From: Octopus vulgaris
Taxonomy: Eukaryota
NCBI GenBank assembly: GCA_951406725.2
Contig: OX597830.1
Coordinates: forward strand, 59,396,001 to 59,460,000
Direction of reading: 5' to 3'
Length of the DNA: 64,000 bases
Of the stretch, positions 18,001 through 48,000 are shown one piece after another; position 1 is the stretch's first letter, and each line of letters starts with the position of its first letter. The position numbers are program-made.

Positions 18001-21000
18001 GTAAAGATTGATGAAAAAATGCTGGCAATTTTGCCCAACATGCTAACAATACTGCATGATGATGATGATGAGGAGGAGGAGGAGGAGGTGGAAGAGGAAG
18101 AGGGCGACTTACATTCAAAAGTGCGCACAATGTGTGCATCTTGTTTGGTAAACCTTGTTTAATGAAGCATCGGGAATTAGAAAATGGCCTGTTGATATCA
18201 TTACTAATTTCATTTGAATGTATAGAATTGTTTGTGGCTTCAATTAGTTTAGGAAGATATATGTCTGCTAACTCTGTCCAAAATTGCTGAGATTTGTCAG
18301 ACTGATTTTGCAGCCAGTGATGCCAATAGGCTGTCCAGCTGACATCTTCTGACATCATTCGAAGAATTCCAACTTTGGTTAAGAATGCTGGACATAAAGT
18401 TTCCATACTTTCAAGCTGCAATAACAACAGAACAAAGACTGATTAAAAAGTTTTCAAAATTGCATATTAATATCACAAATATTAATATTTATAAAACACA
18501 GAAATGTAATAAGTAGCTTTTCATTTCTTTGATTATTGGTTTGGGTGGAAGAGATGGAAAAAGCCTTGTGAATGGTCAAATTTCAATGAAACTAATTGGG
18601 TCACTTCTAATCCCAACTTACCAAAAAGGACTCTTGCCAAAGCTTAATTTCTTAGTGGACTGAAGTGTAGCTGAGTGGTTAAGAAGTTTGCTTCCCAACC
18701 GTGAGGACTTGGGTTCAGAGCTAGTTTGTATCACTTTGAGCAATTGTCTTCTATTGTAGTCCCAAGACATAAAGGCTTTGTGAATGGATTTACTAGATGG
18801 AAACTGAACTAAGTTCAATGTGTGTTTGTGTGTTTACATATACACACATAAACATACACACAAACACACATACATATTCATACACACATACTTATACATA
18901 TATACACACACACATATATATACATATTCATACATACACACACATATATACATACATATTTATAAATAAGGTTGGCTTGTTCACAATTTTTCAACCAAAA
19001 GGCAAACATATATGTCACTAAAGTGACAGTGTTGTTCAGCACCAGTATTGCAAGAAATAGGAGTCAAAAACAACTCATAGCCACAATAATGCACCGTCAT
19101 ATTTACTGACAAGTGAGGCAAGCTCCCTATGCACCAGGCTCAGCCAGATCCCCAGTGATTTCGCATTTACAATAAGTTCGAATAAGTTCAAAAGAGAACA
19201 ATTCAAACTTTTTGAGAGTCCAAAAGGAGAGAAAGAATGATTTCTAATAAAGATTTATCATATTCATAAAAAACAACCAAAGCATGTAATAAGACTATGA
19301 AAATAGTAGTTGAAAAATATTGTTATAGGAATAAATATACCATAAACAATTATAGAAAAATGGATCCAAACTTGATATATTTCTTCTCTCCCTGTCATCC
19401 TTTTCCAACCTTTACATTGAGATCTCCCATCACTACAGTATAAGTGGATTTGTGATCCAATGCTTTCTCTAGTTCTTGCTAGAATCCTTCCACTTTGCTG
19501 TCTTCACGTACATTTGTGGGATCATTGGTCTGGATGATTTTTAGGGTGACGTTTCTTGAGAGATGAACATTCAGCCACACTCTTGCAAAATCTTACTTCA
19601 GTGCTTCATAGTAGTGCAACAATGACAATAGTTGTTTGGTTGCTATGGTGGTAGGATGTATGCCCTGGCAGATCCAACCAAGCTACAAAGGTATTGGACA
19701 ACTGACCCTACAGAAAGACTGCCTCACTGAAGCGAGCAAGTTGTCTTTTCGCTAGAGGTTGGAAGGTCGCTAAACTGAAGAGGTAATCAAATGACCAGCC
19801 AGGTGGCTTCATTCTAAAATGTAAAAAAATGCAAGGAAATGGGCTTCAGTATCTTGTGGGTCAATTGGATTGATCCATGAAGTGAAGCAAAATTTAAGCT
19901 ACCAAAGGCTGCTGGGAATCTCAAGTACCCACAGGCCACCAAGGAATAAGATAACAACCTTTGCCATATGTACCTACAGCTGCAGTTCTTTGGCAGGGAG
20001 AACTAGAATGACCCATTTAATGGAGAAAAAGAAAACCAAATGTGATGTGCTAGGAATGTGTGAAACATGTTGAAGGAAGGAAATAAATATCAGATGAACA
20101 AATTGGAGGTGTTGTGAGACTCAGGAAAGCAGAAGGTGTAAGAGCAACAGGTGATATATGTCTCATTGTAGTCAGAAGAATAGGATTCTTGCCAGATAAA
20201 TATATAAGTGTCTCAGTTTTGACTAGATAATTTCCAATATAGCGTTTTGCATTTCTTACCTCCCAAAAGAAAAGAAACTCCTTAGTAAAGGATATTTTCT
20301 CACAGTTTGGCAGCAACACTGTACCATTTCCATCAATAAATGTCTGCAAAGTTTGCATTTGAGCTTCATCAGCCTTAAAAAAATAAAAAAATAATAACAA
20401 CAGAAGTCAGTTTTTAGCCATTAATTTCTAAGTATAGAATAGTTTTTCTTTTTTTTTTTTCCTAAATTCTAGATAACTTAGTTTAGGAATCATGAAAACC
20501 ACATTTACTGATATTGGTTCAATAAGATTGATCATTTTTTAACACATACATCTGATCAAATGAATTCACCAAAACTAGCACCTGGAATAAATATTCATCC
20601 ATTATTCTCATTCACAAATACCACACACAAGATTAATTTTCATGCATATTTGTCAAATTGTGTCTCTATATCTGTAAATAAGACCATAAATTGTCTCTGT
20701 CTGCTTAAAAGGCTATCTTTCAGTATATCTGTTGCTAGCTTCAATAGATTTTTTACTTGGGCTGAGTAAGGAAGTAAATTTGTGTGTGGGTGAGTGTTTG
20801 GATGGATGGATGGATGGATAGATAGACAGGCAGACGGACAGACAGATGGATGGATGAATAGATGGATATCTGTTAATCCAGTGCCTGTCCTAGATATATC
20901 ACGTCATACACAGGACATATTTTCCCTGGAATCCATGCATCATACTATAATGCACAATCCCAACGTTTATCAACTACTAGAGTAAGTTGGGACTTAGGAA

Positions 21001-45000: not shown

Positions 45001-48000
45001 CAAGAGTTTCTTGGGGCCAGATGCCGTAATATTCACAATTTGCAGATGGATTATGCAAAACAGTCATAGATATGCAATCAACAAACAGTTACCTGAAGAT
45101 ATTACTATAAGTCTGGTTCCGCTCATTAAGAGAAATTTGCCAAAAGCAGTTAACAAAGTAGTGCTGGAGATTTAAAGGCTGAAAGGGGAGAGGAGGAAGA
45201 ATAAGAACAAAAGGCAGAGAGAGGAAGGAGGATTCCTATGACATTGAGGGAATTAAAAGAGGAGGCAGAATAGATGAAAGAGAGAGAGGTGAAACACTTC
45301 ATTCTGCATTGCTCCTGTTCACTCAACTGACAAAAATGAGTATTTCCTGCAACAGACAGGCATCTCATCGAGGGTAGAAAATACATGCACCACGGAAACT
45401 GGGAAGCCAGCCCCATGACTCAGGAAAAATTGTTATATTCTATATATATATATATATATATATATATATATATGTATGTATGTATGTATGTATGTATGTA
45501 TGTATGTATGTATGTATATGTATATATATATATATATGTATATATGTATATATATATATATATATATATATATATATATATATATATGTATGTATGTATA
45601 TATATATATATATATATATATATATATATATATATATATATATATATATATATATATATATATATATGTAATAATAATAAATTAGAGACAAAACCACTAT
45701 TATGCAAATCAATCAAAGAAAGACTTAAGCCAATACATAAAATATAAAGTAATTTATATAAATTAAAATTTAACAAATGAATAACCACTACGATCGTTTC
45801 GTGTCAGCACATCTTAGACATTCTTCAGGTGGTTTCTAAACCTTCTTAGCGAGTTAGAAACCACCTGAAGAATGTCTAAGATGTGCTGACATGAAACGAT
45901 CGTAGTGGTTATTCATTTGTTAAATTTTAATTATATAAATTTTTTATGTATTGGCTTAAGTCTTTCTTTGTTTGATTTGTATAATAGTGGTTTTGTCTCT
46001 AATTTATTATAATATAATATTTTATTATAAAATTGGATTCAATCTTAAATCTGATTTTTCCTTGTAAATTTGGATTTATTCCCTAATATTTATTATTATT
46101 TATATATATATATATATATATATATATATATATAGTGGAGGTGCTTGGCTTAGTGGTTAGGGTGTCAGCATCATGATCGTAAGATTGTGGTTTTGATTCC
46201 TGGACCGGGCGATGCGTTGTGTTCTTGAGCAAAACACTTCATTCCACATTGCTCTACTCCACTCAGCTGGCAAAAATGAGTAATGCTGCGATGGACTGGC
46301 GTCCCATCCAGATGGGGAACACATACACCATAGAAACCGGGAAACCGGGTGCATGAGCCTGGCTAGGCTTTAAAACTAACTTTTTACCACACAGCCACAC
46401 TTGCATACACACACACACACACACACACACACATTAACATTTACAGGAAAACACTGAAAGTTCATAAAATAAAACTATCAAAAATGTTATTCTTACTTGG
46501 GAGCCAATGCAGAGGCCTGCATTAAATGATGTGATGATCCTCAATAAGTGTACCGAAGCCCTCTGTGTCACTGGGAATATCATCTCTCTGCCCATCACTC
46601 CTAAGTATTCAAAGCCATACTTGAAACTTGAGTATATGTTCTGAAATTTATACATACACACACATTACAATTGGTAAATTCCTATAATTATGCATTGGCA
46701 GCAAGTGGCCTAGTGGTTAGGATGTTGCCCTCAAAATTGCAAGATTATGGTTTCAATTCCCAGACTGGTAGCTGCACTGTGTTCTTGAGCAAAACACTTC
46801 ATTTCACATTGCACCAGTTGAAAATGGAAAACCCTATGACAAACTGATATCCCGTTCAGGATGGTGGAGGTGATGCTGGCCTGCTCACCCAGCCAGTGGG
46901 ATGGCATCATTTGAAGGCTACAACAATGCAAAGTGTATTGTGACCAGTGGTGTATAACAACATGTGATAGTTTTGTTGGTACAGTAATGTATTGACAGCA
47001 CAATATCTGTCAGATATAAAATGAGAATATATATATGACATTATTATATATTTCTTTACTACCCACAATGGGCTTAACATAGAGGGGACAAACAAGGACA
47101 GACAAAGGGATTAAGTCGATAACATCGACCCCAGTGCGAAACTGGTACGTTATTTATCGACCCCGAAAGGATGAAAGGCAAAGTCGACCTCGGCGGAATT
47201 CAAACTCAGAACGTAATGACAGACGAAATACCGCTAAGCATTTCGCCCTGCGCGCTAACGTTTCTGCCAGCTTGCCGCCTATATGACATTATTATATTAT
47301 GACCAGCAGGTATGGCTGTGTGGTAAGAAACTTGATTCCCAACCACATGGTTCTGGGTTCAGTCCCACTGCATGGTGACTTGGGCAAGTGTCTTCTGCTA
47401 TAACTATGGACCGACAAAAGCCTTGTGACCGCGTGTGTACCGTTGGTGATTTTTTCCTCCGTCTTCCCTTCTCTGGATCTTTCCTTCTCCTATGTTTCCG
47501 ACGAAGAGCTCCGCTCGAAACGTTAAACCCTCCTTCTTTCCTTCTTTCCTGAGCATCCAATAATACTATATTTGTTCCACGTCCTCACATTGTTGTGTTT
47601 TCTCTTTGTGTTTTCATGTTTGGAATAACTATAAATATATATATACGTATATATCTATTTGTATGTCTCTTTGTGTCTGTTTGTCCCCTGCTGCCGCTTG
47701 ACAACCAATGTCGGTGTGTTTACATTCCTGTAACTTAGTGGTAGGGCAAAAGAGGCTGATAGAATAAATACTACCCCATCCCCCACAAAATGTCCTGGGG
47801 TAGATTTGTTCAACAAAAAGCACTTCAAGGTGGTGCCCCAGCATGGCCACAGTCAAATGACTGAAACAAGTAAAAGATAAAAGATGAAAAGTTCAGGTGA
47901 TGAGTTGGCAGAGTTGTTAGCATGCCAGACAAGATGCTTAATGGCTGTTCATGTCTTTATGCTCTGAGTTCAAATTCTGCCATAGTTGACTTTGTCTTTC

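What the first reader, a model, noticed from the sequence alone, without database searches (positions are those of the whole stretch)
18113..46640. Dynein heavy chain with every AAA1 catalytic element substituted but an intact reading frame: candidate pseudo-motor dynein
Seen in the spliced translation: Walker A is GSQNGQNKETAKDL versus canonical GPAGTGKTETTKDL (same spacing, catalytic Lys replaced by Asn, both Gly shifted). Walker B is WLCLTEINRL versus WGCFDEFNRI (Asp to Thr). Sensor I is IATLCS versus FITMNP (Asn lost). Sensor II is WNLKG versus WGLRA (Arg to Lys), and the AAA2-donated arginine finger is PAFLTKVG versus PATVSRCG (Arg to Lys). Established: AAA1 is the essential hydrolysis site that drives the dynein power stroke, and the Walker A Lys is required for motility. 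Also seen: 24 exons without a stop or frameshift and with canonical splice sites. Inference: this is a protein under selection that is not a conventional motor, for example a structural, regulatory or brake component of the axoneme (conceptually like DNHD1).
Basis: partly seen in the sequence, partly recalled or inferred. Interest (0 to 1): 0.82.

Follow-up and report, generated by a model that had tools for sequence, protein, structure and literature searches.

The report
Class-13 dynein with dead AAA1

Summary
The gene is not a DNAH9/11/17 orthologue, not DNAHX and not DNHD1. Searched one exon at a time, it falls in a distinct clade of 5.3-6.1 kaa heavy chains from echinoderms, amphioxus, a toad, an annelid, a nemertean, a brachiopod and molluscs. 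This clade is sister to outer-arm beta and matches Kollmar's (2016) "class-13" dyneins: beta-type tail, extra length around AAA5, low-complexity C-terminal extension. The AAA1 degeneration is family-wide. None of 29 members has GK[ST] or the Walker B DE pair, all 29 carry a Sensor I loop insertion (14-18 residues in 28, 8 in the toad), and 1 of 29 keeps the Sensor II Arg. The AAA2 and AAA3 P-loops are intact, and AAA4 is also dead. Kollmar did not analyse the ATP sites, and I found no paper that describes this AAA1 state. This copy is a long branch, so constraint in its own lineage is shown only indirectly.

The parts
63845..63997 (-). Linker exon (family profile positions 1721-1771). The gene runs off the window's high end.
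   Evidence: i-E 2.7e-10
61929..62048 (-). Linker exon (profile 1770-1810)
   Evidence: i-E 0.0043
58475..58588 (-). Linker exon (profile 1818-1855)
   Evidence: i-E 1e-5
56666..56824 (-). Possible exon; weak colinear profile hit (1911-1964)
   Evidence: i-E 1.3; weak
51626..51817 (-). Exon before AAA1 (profile 2095-2160)
   Evidence: i-E 1.5e-5
46497..46640 (-). AAA1 exon ending ...FNAGLCIGSQ, the first half of the degenerate Walker A. AG acceptor before 46640, GTAAGA donor after 46497.
44645..44779 (-). AAA1 exon starting NGQNKETAKDL, the second half of Walker A. There is no GK[ST]. AG acceptor, GT donor.
   Evidence: (AAA_6 25.5 bits)
40228..40560 (-). AAA1 exon holding Walker B (WLCLTE: Asp to Thr, Glu kept) and Sensor I (ATLCS: Asn lost), with the family's 14-residue loop insertion. 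GTAAGT donor.
   Evidence: AAA_6 33.8 bits; i-E 8e-20
32176..32340 (-). Exon with Sensor II position (GWNLKG: Arg to Lys). AG acceptor at its 5' edge.
   Evidence: (only 22 bits to the family); placed by alignment only
26638..26826 (-). Possible exon before AAA2; weak colinear hit (profile 2552-2615)
   Evidence: i-E 0.27; weak
23786..23944 (-). AAA2 exon with intact P-loop GPAGCGKS
   Evidence: (i-E 4.6e-16)
21535..21669 (-). Possible AAA2 exon; weak colinear hit. AG acceptor and GTAAGT donor.
   Evidence: (i-E 0.17)
20245..20373 (-). AAA2 exon (profile 2707-2749)
   Evidence: (i-E 1e-4)
18113..18430 (-). AAA2 exon with the position of the arginine finger for AAA1 (PAFLTKVG: Arg to Lys). GTAAGT donor after 18113.
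   Evidence: (i-E 3.8e-16)
15489..15659 (-). AAA2/AAA3 linker exon (profile 2847-2903)
   Evidence: i-E 1.2e-10
13646..13702 (-). Possible small exon; weak colinear hit
   Evidence: i-E 1.4; AG acceptor
11400..11567 (-). AAA3 exon with intact P-loop GPSGSGKT
   Evidence: (i-E 8.2e-9)
10276..10392 (-). Probable AAA3 Walker B exon (KLCFIDDLN)
   Evidence: tblastn E 0.13 to P0011; weak
4484..4693 (-). AAA3 exon with Sensor I region (YIATVNSS...RLLRHF), the best conserved exon
   Evidence: (i-E 1.1e-24)
1881..2018 (-). AAA3 small-domain exon (profile 3160-3205). The gene runs on past the window's low end.
   Evidence: i-E 8.7e-8

Best explanation
**What it is.** The window carries the linker-to-AAA3 part (about a quarter) of a class-13 dynein heavy chain gene on the minus strand. 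Class-13 is an animal family that arose from the outer-arm beta chain (class 4; DNAH9/11/17).

**Shown on full-length family members, not on this gene:**
- A beta-type tail is kept.
- Several insertions and a low-complexity C-terminal extension have been gained.
- The AAA4 P-loop has been lost.

**Shown on this gene and on the family:**
- AAA1 lacks the P-loop Lys-Thr. Its Walker B Asp is replaced (the family as a whole lacks the DE pair).
- The Sensor I Asn and Sensor II Arg are lost.
- The Sensor I loop carries an extra stretch that is conserved within the family.
- The AAA2 residue at the arginine-finger position is Lys.
- The AAA2 and AAA3 P-loops are intact.

**Inferred mechanism.** The protein still folds into a dynein ring and can bind nucleotide at AAA2 and AAA3. 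It cannot run the AAA1 hydrolysis cycle that drives the linker swing, so it is not a force-producing motor. It acts as a static or nucleotide-sensing head.

**Inferred context.** Through its beta-type tail it pairs with an alpha/gamma-type partner chain and the outer-arm accessory chains. The most likely partner is the class-12 / DNAHX chain, as Kollmar proposed from tail homology.
For: **Family membership**
- The Walker B exon alone found only 14 weak hits (27-35% identity) among 1.84 billion representatives, and no canonical dynein.
- One hit, P0011, led to a family scoring 791-1003 bits, against 360 bits or less for canonical dyneins.
The best canonical score was 375 bits (fly Dhc93AB).
- 11 of 11 window exons hit the family best.
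- 14 exons are colinear with the family profile.
- Single-exon trees put the window inside the family in 3 of 4 (support 99, 100, 93; the fourth is unresolved).
- At 15 diagnostic columns the window has 9 family residues, 1 canonical and 5 neither. Canonical controls gave 0 of 14.
- The window shares the Sensor I insertion.

**Tree**
- 26 family rows are monophyletic (support 100) and sister to outer-arm beta (97).
- They are apart from DNAHX and the DNHD1-like row, and the internal order follows the species tree.

**Class-13 features**
- Tail: best matches are beta chains (406, 321 and 226 bits), against 65-77 bits for DNAH5/8-type chains.
- Insertions flank AAA5, and C-terminal extensions of 229-725 residues are rich in Ser, with Glu/Lys/Arg/Asp/Gly/Ala by species.
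- These match Kollmar's text.

**AAA1 state in the family**
- 0 of 29 have GK[ST].
- 0 of 29 have DE.
- 1 of 29 has the Sensor II Arg.

**Other sites**
- The AAA2 and AAA3 P-loops are intact.
- The AAA4 P-loop is lacking in 24 of the 24 family rows that gave a hit (27 were searched).
- No GK[ST] or G-x4-GK is encoded in any minus-strand frame of the 1,717-nt Walker A intron.

**Background.** AAA1 is the main hydrolytic site of dynein (abstract of PMC2533788, seen in the listing).
Against: - This copy is a long branch (end branches 1.45 and 2.05 against a family median near 0.2). It is only 30-50% identical to other members.
- It keeps 65/33/17% of strongly, moderately and weakly conserved family positions. 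A canonical fly beta chain keeps 63/33/18%. That test therefore does not show family-specific constraint in this lineage.
- Only about a quarter of the gene is in the window. The tail, AAA4, AAA5 and C-terminus were seen only in relatives.
- The equation of my family with Kollmar's class-13 rests on matching described features. It does not rest on shared accessions, because the supplements are closed.
- The tree is a quick search (SH-aLRT support only). It holds no canonical class-3 (DNAH5/8) row and no non-bilaterian.
- There are no expression data.
- No test of nucleotide binding, ATPase activity or partner binding was possible.
Confidence: 0.85

Rival explanations
1. The copy in this genome is a decaying or recently dead gene. 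The family is functional elsewhere, but here constraint has been relaxed and the extreme AAA1 state reflects drift.
For: - End branches are long in the single-exon trees (1.45, 2.05, 0.64, 0.53).
- The window is the only sequence of 30 without Lys or Arg at the Walker A lysine column.
- Retention of conserved positions is no better than in a canonical paralogue.
- No closer relative than 36% identity in the Walker B exon was found.
Against: - No stop or frameshift falls inside any of the 14 profile-matched exon segments, each of which lies within a single stop-free frame.
- AG/GT signals flank the mapped exons.
- The retention gradient of 65% > 33% > 17% is what purifying selection gives.
- The toad member is as divergent (9/1/5 at diagnostic columns; end branch 1.27) and is still a 5,277-aa model.
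- The AAA2 and AAA3 P-loops are intact.
Confidence: 0.08
2. It is the orthologue of DNAHX, the non-motile heavy chain described from sea-urchin sperm.
For: - It resembles DNAHX in kind: unusually long relatives, AAA1 motifs that are degenerate and variable, Sensor II Arg to Lys, and a similar range of aquatic animals up to amphibians.
Against: - P0084 is DNAHX. It is 5,272 aa long and has V2221, S2322, T2324 and K2393 exactly as published.
- P0084 scores only 229 bits and 24% identity to the family.
- It lies on another branch of the tree.
- In the per-exon comparison it scored below the family in the 9 exons where it hit at all, and gave no hit in the other 2.
- It keeps GKT and FDEF and has no Sensor I insertion.
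- Its sea-urchin orthologue resembles DNAH5/8-type chains (about 1,500 bits) more than DNAH17/9 (965 and 888 bits). The window's family shows the reverse.
Confidence: 0.01
3. It is the orthologue of DNHD1 (class-11).
For: - DNHD1 is also long, carries insertions, and is reported to lack catalytic Walker B residues.
Against: - The oyster DNHD1-like proteins score 145 bits over 13% of the query.
- They score below the family in the 9 exons where they hit and give no hit in the other 2.
- They keep GKS in Walker A and have no Sensor I insertion.
- They lie on a separate long branch.
- The genus Crassostrea has both a DNHD1-like protein (P0093) and family members (P0019, P0066), so these are distinct genes.
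Confidence: 0.01
4. It is a conventional outer-arm beta gene (DNAH9/11/17 type). Its apparent Walker A defect would be an artefact of a wrong junction or a missed micro-exon.
For: - The nearest canonical class is outer-arm beta.
- The Walker A motif is split by an intron.
Against: - Four other AAA1 elements lie inside single exons and are also substituted.
- The intron encodes no GK[ST].
- All relatives show the same degeneration in unspliced protein models.
- Canonical beta chains score 24-42 bits in the 10 of 11 exons where they hit at all, against 22-83 bits for the family.
Confidence: 0.02

Closest known systems
Class-13 dynein heavy chains (DHC13; Kollmar 2016, Mol Biol Evol 33:3249, PMC5100056)
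   Same: - The range is animals only.
- The tail is like the outer-arm class-4 (beta) tail.
- The AAA5 region is lengthened.
- The C-terminal extension is non-conserved and of low complexity.
- Similarity to the well-known heavy chains in searches is very low.

All of these were matched on the window's relatives. The window's exons lie inside that clade.
   Different: Nothing found contradicts membership. The paper says that it did not analyse the ATP sites in detail. The family-wide loss of the AAA1 and AAA4 P-loops and the Sensor I insertion are described here and not there. Within the family, this copy is unusually divergent.
DNAHX (Chai et al., bioRxiv 10.1101/2025.01.18.633724). By its unusual stalk and DNAH5/8-type origin it probably equals Kollmar's class-12; that equation is my inference.
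   Same: - It works alike: a long heavy chain with insertions and a non-catalytic AAA1 (Sensor II Arg to Lys).
- It is found in aquatic animals up to amphibians.
   Different: - It is a different gene family (229 bits; separate branch).
- It is derived from the DNAH5/8-type chain, not from beta.
- Its AAA1 keeps GKT and the Walker B DE, and binds ATP. The window's family has lost both.
DNHD1 (class-11, 'orphan' heavy chain)
   Same: It is a long, divergent heavy chain reported to lack catalytic Walker B residues and thought to be non-motile.
   Different: It is not related beyond being a dynein (145 bits over 13% of the query). The oyster DNHD1-like protein keeps GKS in Walker A and has no Sensor I insertion.
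Canonical outer-arm beta heavy chains (class 4: DNAH9/11/17, Chlamydomonas beta, fly Dhc93AB)
   Same: - It is the sister group in the tree.
- It is colinear over the whole length, tail included.
- The AAA3 Walker A, Walker B and Sensor I are of the same type.
   Different: The canonical chains have GPAGTGKT, FDEF, MNP and GLRA in AAA1 and GGSGKQ in AAA4. They are about 4,500 aa long and have no C-terminal extension.

Membership tests
Class-13 dynein (Kollmar 2016) | The motor domain forms its own clade, apart from the nine classical classes | tested here: met
   26 family rows are monophyletic (SH-aLRT 100, stem 1.08). Window exons fall inside that clade in 3 of 4 single-exon trees. 11 of 11 exons hit the family best. 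Caveat: identity with Kollmar's sequence set could not be checked, because the supplements are closed.
Class-13 dynein (Kollmar 2016) | The N-terminal tail is homologous to outer-arm class-4 (beta) tails | tested here: met
   Tested on a relative (P0015, residues 1-1048). Beta chains score 406, 321 and 226 bits, against 65-77 bits for DNAH5/8-type chains. Full-length members are colinear with fly beta from residue 2. The tail of this gene lies outside the window.
Class-13 dynein (Kollmar 2016) | A longer AAA5 and a unique low-complexity C-terminal extension | tested here: met
   Tested on 4 relatives. Gaps of 129-172 and 98-148 residues flank the AAA5 region, against at most 13 in the fly chain. 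A further 229-725 residues follow the last homology, rich in Ser plus Glu/Lys/Arg/Asp/Gly/Ala by species. This part of the gene is outside the window.
Class-13 dynein (Kollmar 2016) | Restricted to Metazoa | tested here: inconclusive
   All named family hits are animals. The searches were capped and word-seeded, so absence elsewhere is not shown.
DNAHX | Orthology to XP_041462850 (5,272 aa, Lytechinus variegatus) | tested here: not met
   P0084 is that protein (length and four residue numbers match). It scores 229 bits and 24% identity to the family. It lies on a separate branch. It scores below the family in the 9 exons where it hits and gives no hit in 2.
DNAHX | AAA1 signature: GVGKT, Walker B present, Sensor I N-S-E-T, no loop insertion | tested here: not met
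   The window has NGQNKE, LTE and ATLCS plus a 14-residue insertion.
DNAHX | Insertions in the stalk/MTBD and in AAA4 small domain | not testable with these tools
   These regions lie outside the window.
DNHD1 (class-11) | Orthology to DNHD1-like proteins | tested here: not met
   145 bits over 13% of the query. Separate branch. Scores below the family in the 9 exons where it hits and gives no hit in 2.
Canonical outer-arm beta (class 4) | Catalytic AAA1: GPAGTGKT, FDEF, MNP, GLRA, plus the AAA2 Arg finger | tested here: not met
   All five elements are substituted in the window.

The most novel reading that the evidence does not exclude
Class-13 chains, including this gene's product, are the unidentified second heavy chain of 'dynein-X'.

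On this reading dynein-X is a complete paralogue of the outer dynein arm: a DNAH5/8-derived head (DNAHX / class-12) paired with a beta-derived head (class-13). Both heads would have a dead AAA1, and the complex would be conserved from echinoderms and lophotrochozoans to amphibians. In class-13 the AAA1 pocket is rebuilt around a conserved Sensor I loop insertion, while AAA3 becomes the best conserved nucleotide site.

What fits:
- The tail homologies.
- The similar animal ranges.
- The second head's canonical stalk and its lack of the AAA4S insert.
- The near-canonical length of the family's AAA2-to-stalk stretch.
- A 'minor DNAH9, 3.18%' in the published mass spectrometry. That could be the class-13 chain, since the crinoid orthologue is auto-named DNAH9-like.

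Nothing here tests binding.
Probability: 0.3. Interest if true: 0.7.

Novelty: new member of a known kind. Interest (0 to 1): 0.45.

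Why it matters
Dynein force production depends on ATP hydrolysis at AAA1. Heavy chains that keep the whole 0.5-MDa architecture but lose that site show that the dynein fold has been reused for something other than motility.

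Two such families are under study, DNAHX and DNHD1. DNHD1 matters for human sperm flagella and nodal cilia according to the DNAHX preprint's discussion.

This gene belongs to a third family, derived from outer-arm beta. That family was classified in 2016, but I found no paper describing its nucleotide sites. Three observations stand out:
- Its AAA1 and AAA4 are dead in every member examined.
- AAA3 is its best conserved module.
- It has the right tail to partner DNAHX.

Together these give a concrete, testable candidate for the missing chain of dynein-X. For genome annotation, these genes are currently named "dynein beta chain", "DNAH9-like" or "uncharacterized", which hides what they are.

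Tried and rejected
- **The search for homologous proteins, 'longer', Walker B exon.** It reached only 2,000 aa and found nothing. Full-length dyneins could not appear, so this is uninformative.
- **PDB sequence search, same exon.** 0 hits at E 0.01 or better.
- **The listing of cluster members.** Switched off. Accessions and names of the unnamed hits (P0001-P0014, P0022, P0070, P0072) stayed unknown, and I did not try another route.
- **Test by the preprint's residue spacing on P0015.** It looked half-positive: Val at 2236 and Lys at +172. It was misleading. The Val is a different Walker A position, and one search showed that P0015 is not DNAHX.
- **Retention of family consensus as a test of constraint.** It does not discriminate, because a canonical paralogue scores the same.
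- **Profile hits at i-E 0.05-10.** Three are not colinear or lie on the plus strand (6786-6694, 24624-24532, 51993-52226). I treated them as noise.
- **Not run: complex prediction on class-13 and DNAHX tails.** A pass would come from likeness to solved outer-arm tails and would not tell class-13 from canonical beta as the partner.
- **Not run: structure prediction of AAA1.** It would need joined exons.
- **Not used: genome contigs** (prokaryotes only) and the phage, plasmid and E. coli collections. They are irrelevant to an animal gene.
- **Closed: metagenome contigs and viral contigs.**
- **Closed: supplements.** Three things I could not see bear on the class-13 = family and DNAHX = class-12 equations and on co-occurrence: Kollmar's class-13 sequence lists and trees; the preprint's Supplementary Fig. 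5; and the species shown in its Fig. 2c (figures are not held).

Full report
**Observation**

The gene lies on the minus strand.

- The exon ending at 46497 reads ...FNAGLCIGSQ and is followed by gtaaga. The next exon starts at 44779, after ...tttaaag, and reads NGQNKETAKDL. The junction is phase 0.
- Exon 40560-40228 reads GCWLCLTEINRL ... AIIATLCSTQENKPYDPTKLPVYPSVTAFLPPEV.
- The frame 32340-32176 holds GWNLKG.
- Exon 18430-18113 holds PAFLTKVG.

In an alignment of 45 dyneins these strings fall in the columns of GPAGTGKTETTKDL, GAWGCFDEFNRI, GIFITMNPGY, WGLRA and PATVSRAG. The canonical strings were read from tool output, not from memory. Pfam sees AAA_6 only weakly, at 25.5 and 33.8 bits.

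The window has no N. The gene fills the whole window: linker exons lie near 64000 and AAA3 exons reach down to 1881.

**The joined step was left out**

Inside 46640-18113, homology supports 9 exons: 6 by significant profile hits, 2 by weak colinear hits and 1 by alignment only.

**What it is**

The Walker B exon found no solved structure. Among 1.84 billion representative proteins it found only 14 weak hits at 27-35% identity, none of them a canonical dynein. One hit, P0011 (898 aa), also had a degenerate AAA1.

P0011 led to sea-urchin, brachiopod and mollusc proteins at 791-1003 bits, while canonical dyneins reached 360 bits at most.

Searching with the sea-urchin member at full-length range gave 23 further hits at 525-1341 bits, 20 of them new. 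The best canonical hit was fly Dhc93AB at 375 bits.

The same search returned two proteins that exclude the known non-motile families:

- **DNAHX.** A 5,272-aa Lytechinus variegatus "dynein heavy chain 8, axonemal-like" protein scored only 229 bits. It carries V2221, S2322, T2324 and K2393 exactly as the DNAHX preprint reports, so it is DNAHX. The window's family is therefore not DNAHX.
- **DNHD1.** The oyster DNHD1-like proteins scored 145 bits, so the family is not DNHD1 either.

**Placing the window**

- All 11 exons tested hit the family best.
- A family profile matches 14 colinear exons, covering profile positions 1721-3205 of 5851.
- Single-exon trees put the window inside the family in 3 of 4 cases (support 99, 100, 93). 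The 70-column tree is unresolved.
- At the 15 columns where the family and the canonical dyneins are each fixed for different residues, the window has the family residue 9 times, the canonical one once and neither 5 times. Canonical controls have 0 of 14.
- 10 of the 11 best exon hits are lophotrochozoan, 8 of them molluscan.

In the tree of the AAA1-AAA3 region (41 rows; 4 partial rows left out), the 26 family rows are one clade (support 100). The clade is sister to outer-arm beta (97) and apart from DNAHX and the DNHD1-like row, and its internal order follows the species tree.

Caveats on this tree:
- It is a quick search.
- It contains no canonical DNAH5/8 row.
- The program flags the join of DNAHX with the DNHD1-like row as a meeting of long branches.

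**Comparison with what is known**

Kollmar (2016; I read section 10 in full and passages found by search) defined metazoan-specific class-13 dyneins by four features:
- very low similarity to the well-known chains;
- a tail like outer-arm class-4 (beta);
- a longer AAA5;
- a non-conserved, low-complexity C-terminal extension.

He suggested that class-12 (tail like class-3, with a stalk lacking a typical microtubule-binding site) and class-13 form an outer-arm-like heterodimer.

The window's relatives meet these features:
- The tail of P0015 matches beta chains at 406, 321 and 226 bits, against 65-77 bits for DNAH5/8-type chains.
- Four full-length members are colinear with fly beta. They have extra stretches on both sides of the AAA5 region and 229-725 extra C-terminal residues, rich in Ser plus Glu, Lys, Arg, Asp, Gly or Ala depending on the species.

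I could not compare accessions because the supplements are closed, so the equation rests on features.

DNAHX probably equals class-12. That is my inference, from its unusual stalk and its DNAH5/8-type affinity. The preprint's text does not mention Kollmar.

**The AAA1 state is a family trait**

Among 29 family sequences:
- None has Thr or Ser after the Walker A lysine position. 23 keep Lys and 6 have Arg at that position.
- None has the Walker B DE pair.
- 28 have 14-18 extra residues in the Sensor I loop, with a recognisable consensus (...NPDKLL.LYPS...). The toad has 8 extra.
- Only the sea urchin keeps the Sensor II Arg.

The window shares the insertion. It has Lys at Sensor II, as the bivalves do, and is the only sequence without Lys or Arg in the Walker A lysine column. 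The AAA2 finger position varies within the family: Arg in some echinoderm-type strings, and Asn, Thr, Ser or Glu in others (only the 8 commonest strings were printed).

The other nucleotide sites look like this:
- The AAA2 and AAA3 P-loops and the AAA3 Walker B are intact in the family, and the AAA3 Sensor I Asn is kept (2 of the family rows printed were empty at those columns). The window's mapped exons keep the two P-loops and the Sensor I Asn. Its probable AAA3 Walker B exon rests on a weak hit.
- The AAA4 P-loop is lost in 24 of the 24 family proteins that gave a hit (27 were searched).

Within the family, column conservation runs AAA3 0.78 > AAA2 0.70 > AAA1 0.64. In the 12 canonical rows the order is reversed, at 0.52, 0.61 and 0.74. 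The two sets are not strictly comparable, since one holds orthologues and the other paralogues.

Kollmar states that the ATP hydrolysis sites were not analysed in detail. Searches for DNAHX, class-12/class-13, DNHD1 with AAA1/Walker A, and non-motile or inactive dynein heavy chains found no paper on the class-13 AAA1. The library covers open-access papers and bioRxiv only.

**Mechanism**

*Shown:* five elements needed for AAA1 catalysis are substituted in this gene (the Walker B Glu is kept), and the Walker A intron holds no GK[ST].

*Established:* AAA1 is the main hydrolytic site of dynein (abstract of PMC2533788, seen in the listing).

*Inferred:*
- The protein keeps the ring and binds nucleotide at AAA2 and AAA3.
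- It cannot run the AAA1 cycle, so it is a non-motor head.
- Its beta-type tail lets it sit in a two-headed, outer-arm-like complex.

The boldest reading not excluded is that it is the unidentified second chain of dynein-X. The preprint found that chain to have a canonical stalk and no AAA4S insert. It also lists a minor "DNAH9" in its mass spectrometry.

**Doubts**

- This copy is a long branch.
- Its retention of conserved positions (65/33/17%) shows a selection-like gradient but equals that of a canonical fly beta chain (63/33/18%).
- Constraint in this lineage therefore rests on three things: the stop-free matched exon segments, the splice signals and the intact AAA2/AAA3 sites.
- Expression, ATPase activity and partner binding are untested.

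**Verdict**

However, the gene is an ordinary, if divergent, member of a class defined in 2016, and non-motile heavy chains are already known as a kind. The added value is at the family level: dead AAA1 and AAA4, the Sensor I insertion, and a candidate partner for DNAHX.

Noticed in passing
window 33360-33620 and 17 further places (e.g. 1496-1646, 8402-8552, 28095-28249, 31641-31783, 41083-41233, 49483-49850, 53152-53476, 56220-56382, 62636-62769): A dispersed repeat of about 150 nt occurs on both strands in the introns, at 74-93% identity to the query copy. It is SINE-like in size and copy number. ARAGORN finds no tRNA gene in the window.
   Followed up: partly
window 40673-41041 (+), with open frames on both strands up to about 42400: A reverse-transcriptase fragment (Pfam RVT_1, 41.8 bits) sits in the intron downstream of the Walker B exon. 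It is a retroelement remnant. The neighbouring open frames gave no Pfam match.
   Followed up: partly
window 59854-60096 (-) and 25942-26205 (+): Two related open frames lie in opposite orientation in different introns. Both end ...GSLGMIK/GALEMIK ... LQEVQ.I.LTGT..VL+RA.SL. Neither has a Pfam match. They are probably copies of one mobile element.
   Followed up: partly
P0085 (Strongylocentrotus purpuratus 'dynein heavy chain 8, axonemal isoform X3', 4,101 aa): It carries the DNAHX AAA1 signature (GVGKT, N-x-E-T, LK) and is nearly identical to Lytechinus DNAHX in the tree. The database name DNAH8 hides a DNAHX orthologue.
   Followed up: yes
DNAHX preprint, Results (mass spectrometry passage): The sperm dynein preparation held a 'minor' DNAH9 (3.18%) besides DNAH17. 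The crinoid orthologue of class-13 is auto-named 'DNAH9-like', so this entry might be the class-13 chain. This is a lead only.
   Followed up: no
Family alignment, AAA1 to AAA3 (relatives of the window's gene): The order of conservation among AAA modules is reversed relative to canonical dyneins. AAA3 is the best conserved and AAA1 the least. The AAA4 P-loop is lost in all 24 members that gave a hit.
   Followed up: partly
PDB rows 9fqr_I3, 9fqr_Hl, 9fqr_Xx: Chains of 4,069-4,730 residues match as dynein heavy chains but carry other molecule names in this copy (CFAP57, RSPH9 homolog, malate dehydrogenase 1B). These look like label slips in the entry table.
   Followed up: no
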